Shown here one piece after another: positions 56,422 through 61,537 of a stretch of 62,375 nucleotides of DNA. The DNA comes from a bacterium. GTDB taxonomy: Bacteria; Patescibacteriota; Minisyncoccia; Phycocordibacterales; PALSA-1337. The translations under genes and the position numbers were made by a program. The stretch is from positions 1 to 62,375 of the forward strand of contig JAJXVL010000001.1 in assembly GCA_021782175.1 (NCBI GenBank), read 5' to 3'. Positions within the stretch are counted from its first letter, which is position 1; every line of letters starts with the position of its first letter. The notes below the pieces were generated by a model. That model was not told the DNA's origin, searched no databases, and was given only the letters and a program-made list of their open reading frames with translations.

Positions 56422-57273
56422 CTACTTCGCCTGCTCGACAATCAACTGAGCTTCTGTGAGCACCGCTTCGGCTGCCGCGGCTTTGACGCCAATCTCCCCC
56501 AGAATTTGCGGAGTACCAATGAGATCAACGCAAGCCAAGACATCACGACCGATCAAGTCTTTCTTCTGATCATGAGACAAACTAGTCAGACAAGTGATCG
56601 GGTGCAAGCCGTTCTGCTCAATCACCTGGTGCAAGCCACCTTGCGCTGGGTAATTCCAACCAATCATTTTCAGACCGACGCACTCGGCGTATTTCACAGC
56701 CGCTTCCGTGAACTTGGTGTTTGTTGCCAACCAACGGCCGTTCTTCGAGAGTTGACGCTTCTCACCACCAAAGTCAAAAGTTTGTTCGGCCAAGTCGTCG
56801 AAGCGCGCTTTGACATAGAGGGCTACTTTCAAATCAGACTTCAAGCCCAATTCATTGTGGAATTTGGCTTCGGCCATGGCCAGCTCCGCACCTTTCCAAG
56901 CCACCACGTCTACTTCATGCTCCACGCAGGTGCCTTTCAGAACCTGATCAGTGACAGTTTCATAGCCCCACAAGCGGAAAATTCGGGCCATGAACTTCTC
57001 AAAAGGAAACCCATCCGGACCAAGTTCAAACAAAGCTCTCCTGATCGAATACTTTACCGCGGTTGGATGGTGGTTCTGGCGCAAGAGTGCAAAAGCGCGG
57101 CTGTAAATATCTGTTGTGGGCATGCCATCCCACATCTCCCCGTTGATTTCTTTGACGATCTGATTGATAACCGGCTCGTTGGCTCCGACTTTTTTCAGCG
57201 AGGTGACAAGCTTATGCTCATCAAAAAGTTCTTTTTGGCCGTTTGATTTGGTGACAGAAAAAGTAGGGTTCAT
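56422..57273 (-). CDS. ATP-cone domain fused to a PD-(D/E)xK (Mrr-like) restriction-endonuclease-fold domain
   Basis: The N-terminus VTKSNGQKELFDEHKLVTSLKKVG... is ATP-cone-like. It is followed by GFPFEKF...EVDVVAW...AMAEAKF, which gives a D...ExK pattern. Confidence 0.65.
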   Translation of the reverse strand: MNPTFSVTKSNGQKELFDEHKLVTSLKKVGANEPVINQIVKEINGEMWDGMPTTDIYSRAFALLRQNHHPTAVKYSIRRALFELGPDGFPFEKFMARIFRLWGYETVTDQVLKGTCVEHEVDVVAWKGAELAMAEAKFHNELGLKSDLKVALYVKARFDDLAEQTFDFGGEKRQLSKNGRWLATNTKFTEAAVKYAECVGLKMIGWNYPAQGGLHQVIEQNGLHPITCLTSLSHDQKKDLIGRDVLACVDLIGTPQILGEIGVKAAAAEAVLTEAQLIVEQAK

Positions 57274-57282
57274 TGGTGATTA

Positions 57283-58401
57283 TTATACGATAATTCCGCC
57301 ACCGAGGCACTCTTCACCTCGATACAAGACCAGGGATTGTCCGGGGGTGATAGTGTTCTGAGCTTTGGCGAAAGTTATCGTAGCGGTATCAGCAGTGGCA
57401 GTTGTGACTGTTCCCTGAAACAGAGCTTCGCGATAGCGGCCGCGCATTTCCACGATTTGTGACAGGGGCGCGTGGCCGGAGAGCCAGTTGGTACGCCGAA
57501 GAGTTGCCTGGGTGGTAGCGTTATCCGTCAAATCATTTGTTTTACGATTGGCTACGGTGATAGTGTTCAGCTTCATATTTTTGCCAACAACGAAATAAGG
57601 CTCATCGTGAGGGGTTTTCCTGGTGATTTCAAAGCCGTGTCTTTCGCCGATCGTGAAAAAAGCCGCTCCGGGATGCATGCCGATATTTTGTCCAGAAACA
57701 TCCAAGACTTGGCCCGGTTTGGTTTCGATGTAGTGGCCCAAGAACTCCTTGAGATCAACATGGCCGATGAAACAGAGACCCTGACTGTCCTTCTTGGTGG
57801 CATTGGGTAGTTTGAATTTCTCTGCCAGGCGGCGTACTTCTGGCTTGGTCAGATGGCCGACTGGGAACATGATATGGGCCAAGTCTGCTTGGTTGAGTGT
57901 CCAGAGGAAATAAGATTGGTCTTTGTTACTGTCAGCACCTTTGCTGAGATGATAGGTGGTTTGACCGGCTTTTGTTTGGTCGCTCGTTACCTGAGCATAA
58001 TGGCCAGTGGCCACAAAATCAGCTCCTTGTTCTGCAGCATAACGCCAAAAAGCGCCGAACTTCACTTCGCGATTGCACATCACATCAGGATTGGGGGTTC
58101 GTCCGGCAGCGTATTCAGAGAGCATGTAGTCTATGACACCGGTTTTGTATTCCTGAGAAAGATCCAGGGTTTCGAAAGGAATCCGGAGATGAGCCGCTAC
58201 TCTCATGGCTGATAAACGTTCCTCCTTCCAAGAACATTCGAGCCAATCCGGCTGCCAAACCTTGATGAAGATGCCGGTGACATCATAGCCAGCCTGCTTG
58301 AGTAGGGCGGCGGAAACAGCGCTGTCTACCCCACCCGACAGGCCGACAAAAATTTTCCTTTTAGGAATTTTGTTAATTTTTATATCAGATTTTTTTCCCA
58401 T
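57283..58401 (-). CDS. mnmA: tRNA-specific 2-thiouridylase MnmA
   Basis: It has the PP-loop GLSGGVDSAV and MnmA-like sequence throughout. Confidence 0.92.
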   Translation of the reverse strand: MGKKSDIKINKIPKRKIFVGLSGGVDSAVSAALLKQAGYDVTGIFIKVWQPDWLECSWKEERLSAMRVAAHLRIPFETLDLSQEYKTGVIDYMLSEYAAGRTPNPDVMCNREVKFGAFWRYAAEQGADFVATGHYAQVTSDQTKAGQTTYHLSKGADSNKDQSYFLWTLNQADLAHIMFPVGHLTKPEVRRLAEKFKLPNATKKDSQGLCFIGHVDLKEFLGHYIETKPGQVLDVSGQNIGMHPGAAFFTIGERHGFEITRKTPHDEPYFVVGKNMKLNTITVANRKTNDLTDNATTQATLRRTNWLSGHAPLSQIVEMRGRYREALFQGTVTTATADTATITFAKAQNTITPGQSLVLYRGEECLGGGIIV

Positions 58402-58402
58402 A

Positions 58403-59305
58403 TTATTTTTCTGAAAACAACCCCTCTGATTGCCATTTCAAAATTAAATTGCGAACAAAATTGAGAGAATGCAACGCTTCTATTTTATCTAGCACTATGT
58501 TTTCAGATAATAGATCTACACGTTGTCTATGTTTAATAAATTCTATCCTGTATTCATCAAGAAATTGAGATGTGCTTAAAGCTTGTCCGAGTTGAAGAAA
58601 TGATTTTGAAACATCCGCAGCAAGTTTTTTATAGGTTTCCTCGTTATAATTGTTAGAATAGTCGTCTCTGATTATTTTACTAAAATTACTCTCGCCGCCA
58701 CCTCCCCAATAACCAGTAAGTTTTCCTGCTAATTCTACAATGCGGTGCCCATCAAATACTGCTGTTTGTAAGGCTTCGTCAGATCTTCCTACACAGTCGT
58801 TATACCGCGTCTCATTAAATGCTGATTCGGCTTCCTTAACCTTCACTCTTATATCATTTATATCTATAAGATCTGCTAGAGATAAAGTGTCGTAACACGT
58901 TTCAAATTCCTTTGAAAAAACTTCTTTTAGGAAATCTTCAGTGTACCCTTGATATTTAATAAGAGTTTCAAATGAAGGCACATCACCGCGGTGATGAACA
59001 TTATTCCTCTCTTCGTGTAAATTTCCAATTTTTGAACTTGTCGGTAATTTTTCCAAGTTTTTTAATAAATCGTAGTATTCCCAATGTTTCTTTGGGTTAT
59101 TATTTTTATCTTTTGGTAATGATATTTTTTTATAATCTACAAATATTTTCATTACCATTTCCACTGAATTATCAAAACAGTGTATCGCTAATAGTCTATC
59201 GATAGTAGAGCTTGTATTTTTTGCAAAATCAGACCCACGCATGAACATAGCCTTAACAATAACAAGAGAATGTATGACCCTTATTTTTTCCTGCTCTGTA
59301 CTCAT
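58403..59305 (-). CDS. AT-rich hypothetical protein with a possible HEPN-like R-x4-H motif (ERNNVHHRG)
   Basis: 300 aa, helical and Lys/Asn/Glu-rich. It lies 1 nt from the mnmA start, and its ATG overlaps the mltG stop (ATGA). Confidence 0.45.
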   Translation of the reverse strand: MSTEQEKIRVIHSLVIVKAMFMRGSDFAKNTSSTIDRLLAIHCFDNSVEMVMKIFVDYKKISLPKDKNNNPKKHWEYYDLLKNLEKLPTSSKIGNLHEERNNVHHRGDVPSFETLIKYQGYTEDFLKEVFSKEFETCYDTLSLADLIDINDIRVKVKEAESAFNETRYNDCVGRSDEALQTAVFDGHRIVELAGKLTGYWGGGGESNFSKIIRDDYSNNYNEETYKKLAADVSKSFLQLGQALSTSQFLDEYRIEFIKHRQRVDLLSENIVLDKIEALHSLNFVRNLILKWQSEGLFSEK

Positions 59306-60258
59306 AAGTTGAGATACTTGGCCTTGTTGGCATTATGTCCTTCCAGTGTCGTAGCGTAGTGCATGACACCGTCTTTGCCAGAAAGGTAGAACCAGTATGG
59401 CGTATTGGTCGGCTGGACAGTGTCTAGGATAGCGTCCAAGCCAGGATTATCAATCGGCGTGGGTGGCAAGCCTGTATGCAGATAGAGGTTGTATGGTGAA
59501 GCGGTCTTGAGATCATCCAAGGTCAATTGATCCAGTGGTTTGTTCAGGAAGTAAGCAAAAGGCGGATCAACCTGCAGAGCCATGCCGCTTGTGAGACGGT
59601 GCCAGAGAATGCCCGCCACAATCCTGCGGTCAGTACTCGAAGTAGCCTCTTTCTCAACGATGGAAGCCATCTTGATCACTTGGGAAAGTGGCTGGTCGAA
59701 GTGTCCGATCACATCGTTGATTGTTGCTAGTTTGTTTTGGAAAATAGTCTGCATGTCAGTAACCACCTTGTTGGGTGTGACGTTGGTTGGCCAGAAATAA
59801 GTATCCGGGAAGAGGTACCCCTCATCTTTCTTGGCTATCGTGATGAAAGTATCACTATCAAATCCGGGTATGCTTTTCTTGATTAGTTTGGCGATATCAA
59901 CAGAACTACTTCCTTCGGGAATAGTTACCTTGACCAAAGGAAACCCTTCTAGGCCATGTGTGGTTCGATAGGCAATGCGCAAAACCGACTGTGGACTATC
60001 GAAAAGATACTGTCCTGATTTGACCCCTCGGGTACCGCCATCGATAAGTACTGCGTATATTTTGTACATCCAGGTTGATTTGATCAAACCTTTTGATTCG
60101 AGTAAGTCGGCCGTCTGGCTCAGAGTAGTACCGGGAGCAATGTTTACAACAGTCTGGCCTGGAAAATTGAGCGGCGAAATAGAGGCCCCAACCACACCAA
60201 AAATAGCGGCCACAACCGCCAAACCAGCGAGGATGGTGATGAACAGTCGTTTATCCAT
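59302..60258 (-). CDS. mltG: Endolytic murein transglycosylase MltG (YceG-like)
   Basis: It has an N-terminal TM helix, a YceG-like core (ASIVEKEA...GILWHRL) and a PYNLYLHTGLPPTPI motif. Confidence 0.88.
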   Translation of the reverse strand: MDKRLFITILAGLAVVAAIFGVVGASISPLNFPGQTVVNIAPGTTLSQTADLLESKGLIKSTWMYKIYAVLIDGGTRGVKSGQYLFDSPQSVLRIAYRTTHGLEGFPLVKVTIPEGSSSVDIAKLIKKSIPGFDSDTFITIAKKDEGYLFPDTYFWPTNVTPNKVVTDMQTIFQNKLATINDVIGHFDQPLSQVIKMASIVEKEATSSTDRRIVAGILWHRLTSGMALQVDPPFAYFLNKPLDQLTLDDLKTASPYNLYLHTGLPPTPIDNPGLDAILDTVQPTNTPYWFYLSGKDGVMHYATTLEGHNANKAKYLNL

Positions 60259-60259
60259 A

Positions 60260-61537
60260 TTAGATTGGCAGATTGCTCGGCGCTTCGGCCTTCTTGGACG
60301 GGACGCGTTCCAAGCCAGGCGTAGCCGCGACTGTACCCGGGAAGTGGTAAATAGTCGCCAATTCCTCAGTATTCAGAACGACTACTTTGGAATTCTGGAA
60401 TGGCGGATAAAAAGCGGAACGCCGACGGTAGGCCTTGAGAGCAGCCTTGGAAATATAGTTACGGCGCATATTGCGGTAGTCCTGCCAGGGATAATCAGAA
60501 ACTTTGGAGGTCCATTTGCCGCTCGGTTTGAAGCCATTCAAGTGTTCCGTGTTGAACTGTTTCAGGCAGGAAATAATACCGCCGATACCAAAAGGTGTAT
60601 CGAAAGATTCTTTCTTGGCGATATACATGGTTCGGATACAAACATCAAAAGGCATTTTGGTCACACTGCGCTCCAGAGCTTTGACTACCTCTTGTTCTCC
60701 ATGAGAGATCGTGGGTAGTTTGGCAAAGCCGGTATCCGGATTGACTTCCCCGGCTACCTTGGTTTTCTTGTCACGAATGAGGATTTTGTTTACCTCTTCC
60801 TGGGCCAAATCTTTCCAGCGGTCAGTTTTGCCCCAGAGGGTGCCTTTCTTGTGCTGCTCTTTCTTGTGAGCACGCACGATGAATTGGAACCAAGCTTGTT
60901 CATTGGGTCTCAGACTGCCCAACCATTCGATGGTATGAGTGAGCGGATCAATCTTGAATTCTTCCTTGGGGTCCTTGTCCAGACCGTAATCAATATAGGT
61001 CTTGATGGGATAAGGGTCAGGCTTGGTGCATTCGAACTCCGCGGCCCAAACTTTCCAGATCTTGGGGTCGAATTGGACTTCCTTGGCATAGTCGGTACGT
61101 TCGGTGATTTCGATGCCGGGATATTGAGCATATAGTGCCGACATCAAGTTCTGTTTGCGTCGATCCTCAGTCCAGATCATGAATTTCACTTGACCTTCGA
61201 TGGAGATGATTTCCAGGGAATACCACGGTCTGGTATCACCTTTCCAGTATTGGCCGTACCAATTGCCATCAGCGGTGTTGTGGATAGCCTGCAAGACAGT
61301 TTCCATGGCCAACGGCGATTTCCAGGTGTCCTTGGGCAAACGCAACTCCAGCAAAGTATATTTCAACTTCAAAAAATTCTTGAGTCTCACATAACGCACC
61401 CAAATATCCCAAAAGAGCCTGGCCATGATGACGGCTAGGGCAATTGGCGACAAGAGGATAGTGTAATGCAAAACCGTCGGCCACAAATCCGTATGGAAAA
61501 GATTGCCAAGCAGACTCGCAATATCGGCGTAGGTCAT
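60260..61537 (-). CDS. Membrane-anchored conserved hypothetical protein (Trp/Lys-rich, C-terminal LNTEELATIYHFP motif)
   Basis: A 425-aa ORF with one or two N-terminal TM helices. I cannot name a family with confidence. Confidence 0.5.
   Translation of the reverse strand: MTYADIASLLGNLFHTDLWPTVLHYTILLSPIALAVIMARLFWDIWVRYVRLKNFLKLKYTLLELRLPKDTWKSPLAMETVLQAIHNTADGNWYGQYWKGDTRPWYSLEIISIEGQVKFMIWTEDRRKQNLMSALYAQYPGIEITERTDYAKEVQFDPKIWKVWAAEFECTKPDPYPIKTYIDYGLDKDPKEEFKIDPLTHTIEWLGSLRPNEQAWFQFIVRAHKKEQHKKGTLWGKTDRWKDLAQEEVNKILIRDKKTKVAGEVNPDTGFAKLPTISHGEQEVVKALERSVTKMPFDVCIRTMYIAKKESFDTPFGIGGIISCLKQFNTEHLNGFKPSGKWTSKVSDYPWQDYRNMRRNYISKAALKAYRRRSAFYPPFQNSKVVVLNTEELATIYHFPGTVAATPGLERVPSKKAEAPSNLPI

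What the first reader, a model, noticed from the sequence alone, without database searches (positions are those of the whole stretch)
58403..59305. Very AT-rich HEPN-like gene spliced between mltG and mnmA
This 300-aa ORF is far more AT-rich than its neighbours, yet it is translationally coupled to both of them. Its ATG overlaps the mltG stop (ATGA at 59302-59305), and its stop lies 1 nt before the mnmA start.

The helical N-terminal half contains LHEERNNVHHRG, which fits the R-x4-H (RN...H) signature of HEPN RNases. Those are common in abortive-infection and toxin systems. No obvious antitoxin or partner gene is adjacent. The HEPN assignment rests on a short motif only.
Basis: partly seen in the sequence, partly recalled or inferred. 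Interest (0 to 1): 0.6.

Follow-up and report, generated by a model that had tools for sequence, protein, structure and literature searches.

The report
Acquired solo HEPN RNase-like gene
A foreign, AT-rich gene sits exactly between two housekeeping genes of an ultra-small bacterium and encodes a member of an uncatalogued family of HEPN-type (RNA-cutting) proteins, most likely a stand-alone anti-phage or toxin gene; this is a new family of a well-known kind, not a new kind of system.

Summary
A 300-aa ORF (58403-59305, minus strand) overlaps the mltG stop codon (ATGA) and ends 1 nt before the mnmA start. Its GC is 0.33 against 0.51 for the genome (z = -4.6; GC3 0.26 vs 0.57).

The HEPN reading holds up:
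- R100, N101 and H105 are invariant in the family. R100, H105, E49 and K18 are invariant across 40 divergent relatives.
- The top 11 Foldseek PDB hits are all HEPN proteins, though with weak E-values.

No Pfam, NCBIfam, PADLOC or PHROG family matches, so this is an uncatalogued HEPN clade: a constant N-terminal HEPN module and a variable C-terminal helical module.

Recent acquisition is also supported. The gene is absent from 30 relatives that keep mltG-mnmA synteny, with empty sites in about 13, and from 399 of 400 other genomes sampled from the phylum. Homologs are scattered over bacteria and archaea, often inside restriction-modification or defence islands, with no constant partner.

An independent assembly confirms both junctions and carries a nonsense codon (E251*). 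RNase activity and a defence role are inferred, not shown.

The parts
58403..59305 (-). Whole acquired ORF (300 codons plus TAA stop): HEPN-like protein P0001
   Evidence: define the ORF. GC is 0.333, z = -4.6. It is absent at this site in 30 relatives.
58748..59284 (-). N-terminal module, residues 8-186: HEPN four-helix core (helices at about residues 9-29, 34-58, 90-106 and 112-134) plus a helical hairpin extension (150-185)
   Evidence: AF2 model m034303206bbe has pLDDT 96.1 and pTM 0.87. The top 11 Foldseek PDB hits are all HEPN, with TM 0.48-0.63 normalised by target. This module is shared by 485 representative clusters.
58991..59008 (-). R100-N101-N-V-H-H105: the predicted catalytic R-x4-H motif, at the end of helix 3
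   Evidence: R100, N101 and H105 are invariant in A1. R100 and H105 are invariant in 40 divergent N-domains. The position in the model comes, and the definition from PMC3710099.
59147..59161 (-). E49-x3-K53 in helix 2: the HEPN 'Ex3[KR]' auxiliary acidic motif, part of the invariant AIHxFDNxxE block
   Evidence: E49 is invariant in A1 and A3. Helix 2 spans residues 34-58. The motif is defined in PMC3710099.
58406..58747 (-). C-terminal helical module, residues 187-300 (LTGYWG, QLGQAxTxMQFLDEYR and FVxNLILKWQxEG blocks). Function unknown; proposed regulatory or sensor module
   Evidence: It is conserved within the close family, at 60% mean pairwise identity. Across the wider clade it falls to 16% against 26% for the HEPN half. 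In the full-length model pLDDT is 51-65 for residues 190-250 and 81-94 for 250-290.
58553..58555 (-). Codon 251 (GAA, Glu), which is TAA (stop) in a 99.4%-identical sister-strain contig
   Evidence: L048, ENA ERZ27237563 k141_812636.
59302..59305 (-). ATGA overlap: the insert's start codon overlaps the mltG stop. MltG carries one extra C-terminal residue (…KYLN-L*) compared with relatives (…KYLN*)
58399..58405 (-). TAA-T-ATG: insert stop, 1-nt spacer, mnmA start. A relative with an empty site (L024) has the same spacing, TAG-C-ATG, between mltG and mnmA
59302..60258 (-). mltG (YceG family), the upstream host gene
   Evidence: PF02618, 8.2e-65. It is syntenic across the order.
57283..58401 (-). 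mnmA (tRNA 2-thiouridylase), the downstream host gene
   Evidence: PF03054, 4.6e-74. It is syntenic across the order.

Best explanation
The ORF is a real gene that one lineage of an ultra-small-genome (Patescibacteria-type) bacterium acquired recently by horizontal transfer from a lower-GC source.

It landed as a bare ORF, with no promoter, terminator, repeats or mobility gene. It replaced the short spacer between mltG and mnmA, a junction that holds different cargo in different relatives. It is therefore most likely expressed from the host operon, by translational coupling at both ends.

The protein belongs to an uncatalogued clade of the HEPN superfamily.
- The N-terminal module is a four-helix HEPN domain with an intact active site (R100-N101-x3-H105 plus E49-x3-K53).
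- The C-terminal module of about 115 residues is helical. It is conserved in the close family and varies across the wider clade.

Proposed mechanism (inferred, not shown):
1. Like other HEPN enzymes, the protein dimerises or oligomerises so that two R-x4-H motifs form a metal-independent RNase site.
2. With no antitoxin present, it is made in an inactive state, as the solo HEPN defence proteins HepS, ApeA and Tha are.
3. During phage or plasmid invasion, a trigger sensed through the variable C-terminal module switches it on.
4. It then cuts tRNA or other RNA, arrests translation and aborts the infection.
For: **Real gene, real junctions.** There are 15 full-length homologs at 37-42% identity with 28 invariant columns. 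An independent assembly spans both junctions at 99.4% identity.

**HEPN.**
- R100, N101 and H105 are invariant. K18, E49, R100 and H105 are the only invariant residues across 40 divergent N-domains.
- The domain model has pLDDT 96.1. [quoted passage not shown]
- The top 11 Foldseek PDB hits are all HEPN proteins, with probability up to 1.00, TM 0.48-0.63 and RMSD about 4-6 A for most of them.
- Of 100 relatives, 7 touch Pfam HEPN PF05168 and 1 touches HEPN_Swt1. Several touch PADLOC Csx1/Csm6, CARF_HEPN or RTasHEPN models.

**Acquisition.**
- GC z = -4.6 and GC3 0.26 vs 0.57.
- Synteny 425-aa gene / mltG / mnmA / 283-aa gene holds across the order, and the gene is absent there. About 13 relatives have an empty site.
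- Only 1 weak hit turns up in 400 other genomes of the phylum.
- Homologs are scattered over Saccharibacteria, Dadabacteria, Nitrospiraceae, Bipolaricaulota, Acidobacteriota, Pseudomonadota and methanogenic archaea. They are nearly always lower in GC than their flanks.

**Defence role.** Homologs sit in defence contexts:
- inside a type I R-M operon (ResIII ... HsdS);
- next to MmeI-type and Eco57I-type R-M genes;
- next to a Dcm/HaeIII/Vsr cluster;
- next to an E2-E1-JAB fusion;
- next to HEPN_AbiV and a HicB-like gene.

Other low-GC islets of the host carry Abi_alpha, PIN and DNA methylase genes.

**Solo and self-regulated.** No MNT gene is present in the genome and there is no conserved neighbour. 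Precedents are HepS (PMC13043305), ApeA and Tha.
Against: No activity data exist: RNase activity, toxicity, oligomerisation and phage defence are all untested.

Foldseek E-values are weak (0.19 or higher). The sequence profile finds no HEPN chain in the PDB. No curated family matches this protein itself.

The host genome is only 84% complete, so an unlinked partner cannot be excluded.

A sister strain carries a nonsense codon at residue 251. The gene may therefore be dispensable or decaying in this population.

The C-terminal module's sensor role rests only on its faster divergence.

Confidence: 0.6

Rival explanations
1. Passenger gene in decay. It is a HEPN-family gene that arrived by chance, gives this host no benefit and is being lost. 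The translational coupling only reflects selection to keep mnmA expressed.
For: A sister-strain contig has E251*, which removes the conserved C-terminal helices. It is one of only two substitutions in 903 nt. The gene is unique to this genome among 30 relatives and 400 phylum genomes. The junction turns over cargo frequently.
Against: In the window the ORF is intact over 300 codons in AT-rich DNA, where stop codons arise easily. All family-invariant residues are retained. The nonsense allele could be a minority variant or an assembly error.
Confidence: 0.15
2. Toxin of a toxin-antitoxin or addiction module whose antitoxin is unlinked, unrecognised, or an RNA. The gene would act as a selfish stabilising element and not as a defence gene.
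For: The closest structural matches are HepT toxins of HEPN-MNT systems. A HicB-like antitoxin gene lies near one homolog. The genome is 84% complete, so a partner could be missing.
Against: There is no NTP_transf_2 (MNT) gene in the genome, and the control genomes were positive. The RX4HXY tyrosine that MntA AMPylates is absent: the sequence here is H105-R-G. No neighbour is conserved across 13 homolog loci. The overlapping antisense ORF is not conserved and is within chance, P = 0.16. Both flanking genes are conserved housekeeping genes.
Confidence: 0.12
3. Host-adapted RNA-processing factor functionally tied to MnmA, for example a tRNA anticodon nuclease or tRNA quality-control RNase acting on the s2U34 tRNAs made by the downstream enzyme.
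For: It is tightly coupled to mnmA. Several HEPN enzymes are anticodon nucleases: PrrC and RloC per PMC3710099, and HepS and ApeA.
Against: None of the 13 homolog loci has mnmA or mltG nearby. Relatives fill the same junction with unrelated genes: REC, RNase_T, PsbP-like and HTH-HATPase. The composition marks it as recent cargo.
Confidence: 0.04
4. Not a HEPN enzyme. It would be a generic helical-bundle protein in which R-x4-H is a structural or ligand-binding motif without nuclease activity.
For: All database matches are below significance: Foldseek E is 0.19 or higher, there are no Pfam hits for the protein itself, and the profile finds no PDB hit. Some HEPN domains are non-catalytic (PMC3710099).
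Against: The only four residues invariant across 25-43%-identical relatives are the HEPN catalytic set plus one Lys. They lie at the canonical topological positions. The structural neighbours are exclusively HEPN. The weak family hits of relatives converge on HEPN models in two independent libraries.
Confidence: 0.07

Closest known systems
HEPN superfamily (Anantharaman et al. 2013, PMC3710099), in particular its solo families embedded in restriction-modification operons
   Same: It has an all-alpha four-helix core. [quoted passage not shown] It is patchily distributed across bacteria and archaea and often sits in R-M operons.
   Different: It matches none of the named HEPN families in Pfam, NCBIfam or PADLOC. 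It carries its own conserved C-terminal helical module of about 115 residues.
HepS, the solo HEPN abortive-infection anticodon nuclease of prophage Gifsy-1 (PMC13043305)
   Same: It is a single HEPN protein with no partner or inhibitor gene. HepS is constitutively expressed yet inactive until triggered. The canonical motif even has the same numbering (R100, N101, H105). This is the best model for how a solo HEPN gene can sit in a constitutively expressed operon.
   Different: No sequence or fold match to HepS appeared in the PDB searches. HepS homologs are mostly prophage-borne in Enterobacteria and Bacillaceae. This family was not found in viral contigs or phage genomes. Trigger and targets are unknown here.
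ApeA (single-gene HEPN defence; bioRxiv 10.64898/2026.01.26.701840) and Tha (PMC11087260)
   Same: Both are stand-alone HEPN effectors that carry their own sensing function and cause abortive infection by RNA cleavage.
   Different: There is no hit to the ApeA models in Pfam or PADLOC. ApeA forms large doughnut-shaped oligomers that bind dinucleotides. Tha is controlled by an overlapping antisense gene. The antisense ORF here is not conserved and is within chance.
HepT toxin of the type VII HepT/MntA (HEPN/MNT) toxin-antitoxin system (PMC7641770; PDB 5yep, 7bxo, 8xdj)
   Same: These are the closest solved structures by Foldseek, with TM 0.54-0.63, RMSD about 5 A and probability up to 1.00. They use the same R-x4-H RNase motif.
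   Different: The host has no MNT antitoxin and the protein has no RX4HXY tyrosine. It is more than twice as long, with an extra C-terminal module. It gets no PF05168 hit itself.

Membership tests
HEPN superfamily | All-alpha domain with a core of four helices in an up-down bundle | tested here: met
   The AF2 N-domain model has pLDDT 96.1 and is all helical. The top 11 Foldseek PDB hits are HEPN proteins, with TM 0.48-0.63 normalised by target. E-values are weak, 0.19 or higher.
HEPN superfamily | Conserved Rx4-6H motif at the end of helix 3, at the start of the loop to helix 4 | tested here: met
   R100-x4-H105 is invariant in A1 and A3. It lies at the C-terminal end of the helix spanning residues 90-106 and is followed by a loop and the helix 112-134. 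The definition is in PMC3710099.
HEPN superfamily | Polar residue (N, D or H) immediately after the conserved R | tested here: met
   N101 is invariant in the 16-member family. It is N in most of the 40 divergent N-domains.
HEPN superfamily | Second conserved acidic residue in helix 2, typically as Ex3[KR] | tested here: met
   E49 is invariant in A1 and A3. E49-M-V-M-K53 lies in the helix spanning residues 34-58.
HEPN superfamily | Metal-independent RNase activity that depends on the motif's R and H | not testable with these tools
   This needs a biochemical assay.
HEPN superfamily | Dimerisation that brings two Rx4H motifs together into a composite site | not tested
HepT/MntA type VII toxin-antitoxin (Pfam HEPN PF05168 with MNT) | Adjacent MNT nucleotidyltransferase antitoxin gene | tested here: not met
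   The neighbours are mltG and mnmA. PF01909 is absent from the whole genome, while 12 of 14 control genomes were positive.
HepT/MntA type VII toxin-antitoxin (Pfam HEPN PF05168 with MNT) | RX4HXY motif, whose Tyr is the AMPylation site | tested here: not met
   The sequence here is R100-NNVH-H105-R-G. The family consensus is RNxVQHQGD, with no Tyr at position +2. The motif is defined in PMC7641770.
HepT/MntA type VII toxin-antitoxin (Pfam HEPN PF05168 with MNT) | Match to PF05168 above threshold | tested here: not met
   The protein gets no Pfam family at E up to 1. Only 7 of 100 distant relatives give weak hits, the best at 1.6e-4.
Named solo or Abi HEPN families (ApeA, AbiV, AbiJ, AbiU2, AbiD/F, RiboL-PSP, Swt1 and others) | Match to the family's Pfam or PADLOC model | tested here: not met
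   There are no hits in Pfam, NCBIfam or PADLOC for the protein. Relatives give only scattered weak hits.
HepS (Gifsy-1 solo HEPN) | Detectable sequence or fold similarity to the HepS structures | tested here: inconclusive
   HepS did not appear in the phmmer or profile searches of PDB sequences, nor among the 50 Foldseek hits listed. Whether the HepS entries are in the local copies was not verified.
Mobile element cargo (IS, transposon, integron cassette, prophage) | Terminal repeats, target-site duplication, attC site, or an adjacent mobility gene | tested here: not met
   No terminal direct or inverted repeats bracket the insert. There is no mobility gene within the operon. There are no relatives in viral contigs or phage genomes.

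The most novel reading that the evidence does not exclude
The mltG-mnmA junction, and similar operon junctions in ultra-small Patescibacteria genomes, could be a cargo-exchange site. Promoter-less single ORFs would be swapped in and out with codon-level precision by a mechanism not yet recognised. That would let these genomes sample defence genes such as this HEPN family under host-operon control, without any mobile-element scaffold.

A second unexcluded twist is that this HEPN enzyme targets the s2U34 tRNAs made by the co-translated MnmA.
Probability: 0.08. Interest if true: 0.65.

Novelty: new variant of a known kind. Interest (0 to 1): 0.36.

Why it matters
**An unnamed HEPN clade.** It adds a clade of about 485 representative clusters at 50% identity, found in bacteria and archaea, to the HEPN RNase superfamily. 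The architecture is a constant HEPN effector module plus a variable C-terminal module, about 300 aa in total. That layout invites testing as a self-contained sensor-effector defence protein.

**How tiny genomes carry defence genes.** Ultra-small genomes have almost no intergenic space. Here a defence-type gene is carried as a bare ORF stitched into a housekeeping operon, coupled at both ends, at a junction that turns over cargo.

**Limits.** Solo HEPN genes and their association with R-M and defence islands are already well established, so this would not surprise a specialist. Nothing about function has been shown experimentally.

Tried and rejected
1. **Insert supplies a new mnmA start and N-terminus.** The AT-rich tract runs into mnmA. 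Rejected: the Lys-rich N-terminus (…DIK..K.PK.KIFVGLSGG) is shared with same-genus genome G001.
2. **Overlapping antisense regulator as in Tha.** The 77-aa ORF at 58972-59205 (+) is within chance (P = 0.16 under synonymous shuffling). It is not conserved in frame or position in 10 homologs.
3. **MNT antitoxin elsewhere in the genome.** None found.
4. **Mobile-element hallmarks.** No flanking direct or inverted repeats. Promoter and terminator matches are at shuffle level.
5. **Phage origin.** No relatives in IMG/VR contigs or in 50,697 phage genomes by tblastn at E up to 1. There were no meaningful BFVD fold hits.
6. **Full-length Foldseek search.** Uninformative: the best hits were membrane proteins with RMSD above 20 A. 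The domain had to be isolated first.
7. **Sequence and profile searches of PDB chains.** Only spurious hits.
8. **Assembly chimera.** Rejected by independent contig L048.

Full report
**Observation.**
The minus-strand ORF 58403-59305 encodes 300 aa. Its ATG overlaps the stop codon of the upstream gene as ATGA (59302-59305). Its TAA is followed by a single T and then the ATG of the downstream gene. The neighbours are YceG/MltG (PF02618, 8e-65) and MnmA (PF03054, 5e-74).

The ORF's GC is 0.333. The 545,689-bp genome averages 0.505 (sd 0.037) over 900-nt windows. That places the ORF at z = -4.6, in the lowest 0.06% of windows. GC3 is 0.26 against 0.565 for 424 long ORFs.

An independent ENA assembly contig (L048, 1412 nt) matches window 59358-58048 at 99.4% identity. 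It spans the mltG end, the whole insert and the mnmA start, so the arrangement is not an assembly chimera.

**What the protein is.**
The protein itself matches no model in Pfam, NCBIfam, PADLOC or PHROGs. It is not an orphan, though.
- A word-indexed search found 15 full-length relatives at 37-42% identity, all unnamed.
- An exhaustive HMMER scan of 1.84 billion representatives found 485 clusters at E up to 1e-3. Most align only to residues about 10-180.

In the 16-sequence family alignment, H97, R100, N101 and H105 are invariant, as is an AIHxFDNxxE block at residues 40-49. In an alignment of 40 divergent N-terminal domains (25-43% identity), exactly four residues are invariant: K18, E49, R100 and H105.

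AlphaFold2 with that alignment gives a very confident all-helical model of residues 8-186 (pLDDT 96.1, pTM 0.87). The defining paper of the superfamily (PMC3710099) sets out these criteria:
- Rx4-6H lies at the end of helix 3, before the loop to helix 4.
- The residue after R is polar.
- A second conserved acidic residue lies in helix 2, typically as Ex3[KR].

All of them are met. R100-N101-x3-H105 ends the helix spanning residues 90-106. E49-MVM-K53 lies in the helix spanning residues 34-58.

Foldseek with the full-length model was uninformative. With the isolated domain, the top 11 PDB hits are all HEPN proteins: HepT toxins 8xdj, 8xeh, 8yuf and 7bxo, plus 2q00, 2hsb and 1wty. Probability reaches 1.00, TM normalised by target is 0.48-0.63, and RMSD is about 4-6 A for most of them. 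E-values are weak, 0.19 or higher.

Weak hits of distant relatives converge on the same answer:
- 7 of 100 touch Pfam HEPN (PF05168) and 1 touches HEPN_Swt1.
- Several touch the PADLOC Csx1/Csm6, CARF_HEPN or RTasHEPN models.

I conclude that the N-terminal module is a catalytically intact HEPN domain of a clade not represented in current family libraries. I put this at about 0.85-0.9.

The C-terminal ~115 residues are helical and conserved within the close family, at 60% mean pairwise identity. Across the wider clade they fall to 16%, against 26% for the HEPN half, while total length stays near 300 aa. So the N-terminal module is constant and the C-terminal module varies.

**Is it recently acquired?**
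Yes. The block 425-aa gene / mltG / mnmA / 283-aa gene is syntenic in 30 relatives of the same genus and order. These genomes are 0.5-1.1 Mb at up to 100% completeness, consistent with Patescibacteria. None has this gene at the locus.

In about 13 relatives mltG abuts mnmA, with a gap of 0-190 nt. In the closest, L024, the arrangement is TAG-C-ATG, the same 1-nt spacing now seen between the insert and mnmA.

MltG here has one extra residue (…KYLN-L*). Its codon, together with the new stop codon, contains the insert's ATG. The insert is therefore essentially just the ORF.

A profile search of 400 other genomes spread over 320 genera of the phylum found one weak hit, to the N-domain only.

Full-length homologs occur in Saccharibacteria, Dadabacteria, Nitrospiraceae, Bipolaricaulota, Acidobacteriota, Pseudomonadota and Methanoregula. 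More distant or partial matches occur in other archaea. In nearly every host the homolog is lower in GC than its flanks.

The insert has no flanking repeats. Promoter and terminator signals are at shuffle level. There is no mobility gene, and no relatives appear in viral contigs or phage genomes.

**The junction is a variable spot.**
Other relatives fill the same junction with unrelated genes:

| Cargo | Relatives |
|---|---|
| Response-regulator receiver genes, on the opposite strand | 5 |
| RNase_T-type exonucleases | 3 |
| PsbP-like protein | 1 |
| HTH-HATPase-DUF4325 protein | 1 |
| Unknown 128-aa protein | 1 |

**What it probably does.**
Both flanking genes are conserved housekeeping genes, so there is no adjacent partner. 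The genome (84% complete) has no MNT nucleotidyltransferase. The RX4HXY tyrosine needed for MntA-type neutralisation (PMC7641770) is absent. This is not a HepT/MntA module.

The 13 homolog loci examined share no constant neighbour. Several of them lie in defence contexts:
- inside a type I R-M operon, between a ResIII subunit and an overlapping HsdS gene (L037);
- beside an MmeI-type enzyme and DUF4917 (L040);
- beside Dcm, a HaeIII-like endonuclease, Vsr and a Cdc6-type ATPase (L044);
- beside an Eco57I-type enzyme and an E2-E1-JAB fusion (L043);
- beside HEPN_AbiV and a HicB-like gene (L004).

This matches the R-M-embedded solo HEPN families described in PMC3710099.

The host's other low-GC islets carry Abi_alpha, PIN and DNA-methylase genes. 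The AT-rich fraction of this genome is thus an accessory and defence pool.

The best-supported mechanism, by analogy and not by test, is a self-contained HEPN defence protein. It would be made constitutively from the host operon and held inactive. A trigger sensed by the variable C-terminal module would switch it on, and it would then cleave tRNA or other RNA and abort the infection.

The precedents are HepS (a solo HEPN, constitutively expressed, an inactive tetramer until bound by a phage tail-tip protein, and an anticodon nuclease; PMC13043305), ApeA and Tha. HepS even has the same motif numbering (R100, N101, H105). However, none of my sequence, profile or fold searches of the PDB returned it, so I claim analogy and not kinship.

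**Caveats and rivals.**
The sister-strain contig carries only two substitutions in the 903-nt insert. One is synonymous. The other is GAA to TAA at codon 251, which removes the conserved C-terminal helices. This fits a dispensable accessory gene with rapid turnover and keeps alive the rival that the gene is a decaying passenger (0.15).

The other rivals are:
- an unlinked or unrecognised antitoxin (0.12);
- a non-catalytic helical protein (0.07);
- a functional tie to MnmA (0.04). No homolog has mnmA nearby, and the junction hosts unrelated cargo elsewhere.

The Tha-like antisense-gene idea was tested and rejected. So was the idea that the insert supplies the mnmA N-terminus.

**Novelty and verdict.**
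Solo HEPN genes, their patchy horizontal spread and their residence in R-M and defence islands are established knowledge. Earlier notes from this scan (unchecked AI leads) describe other AT-rich solo HEPN-like genes wedged into housekeeping operons of Patescibacteria. None is similar in sequence to this one. That makes the pattern recurrent, not unique.

What is new here:
- the family is uncatalogued, with its own two-module architecture;
- the insertion is an unusually clean, bare-ORF one, coupled at both ends, at a cargo-turnover junction.

I rate it a new variant of a known kind, with interest 0.36. Confidence in the overall explanation is about 0.6. By component, it is about 0.95 for recent acquisition, 0.85-0.9 for HEPN and 0.55 for a defence function.

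Noticed in passing
Relatives' loci L008-L036 (the mltG-mnmA junction); window 58402-59305: Across the order, the mltG-mnmA junction is a cargo-turnover spot. It is empty in about 13 genomes. Elsewhere it holds Response_reg genes on the opposite strand (5 genomes), RNase_T exonucleases (3), a PsbP-like protein, an HTH-HATPase_c-DUF4325 protein and an unknown 128-aa protein.
   Followed up: partly
L048 (ENA ERZ27237563 k141_812636); window 58555: A 99.4%-identical sister-strain contig has a nonsense codon (E251*, GAA to TAA) in the HEPN-like gene. Its last ~100 nt diverge from the window inside mnmA, which points to a strain variant or a chimeric contig end.
   Followed up: partly
Own genome G000: C15:1406-2251(-), C31:339-875(-), C11:15464-17038(+), C39:1641-2540(-), C51:1752-2249(-): The genome's other low-GC islets encode Abi_alpha (PF14337, 1.9e-34), a PIN-domain protein, an N6/N4 DNA methylase, a GT11 glycosyltransferase and a LAGLIDADG endonuclease. 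The AT-rich fraction is an accessory and defence pool.
   Followed up: partly
L001 5706-6335; L004 3119-3700 and 3827-4531: HEPN-type genes cluster near homologs. The 209-aa gene upstream of homolog P0010 has its own R-N-x3-H-x-Y motif (LRNRLVHYK). In L004 the homolog is followed 2 nt later by a Zn-ribbon protein with a HEPN-like helix, and then by a HEPN_AbiV gene.
   Followed up: no
L041 1264-2994: In an Acidobacteriota contig the homolog lies in one 576-aa open frame with an N-terminal DUF429 domain (PF04250, 6.7e-8). This may be a fusion, or an upstream gene read through by my crude ORF call.
   Followed up: no
window 56422-57273 (-): The 283-aa gene downstream of mnmA combines an ATP-cone with Mrr_cat and AF1548-like C-terminal domains. 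It is conserved in synteny across the whole order, so it is a core gene and not mobile cargo.
   Followed up: partly
window 60260-61537 (-): The 425-aa gene upstream of mltG has no Pfam family. It is conserved in synteny across the order at 47-68% identity.
   Followed up: no
L043 1319-3769: Beside the Methanoregula homolog lies an 816-aa single-chain fusion of prokaryotic E2, ThiF (E1) and JAB domains, next to an Eco57I-type R-M gene. This is a ubiquitin-like conjugation defence-type gene in an archaeon.
   Followed up: no
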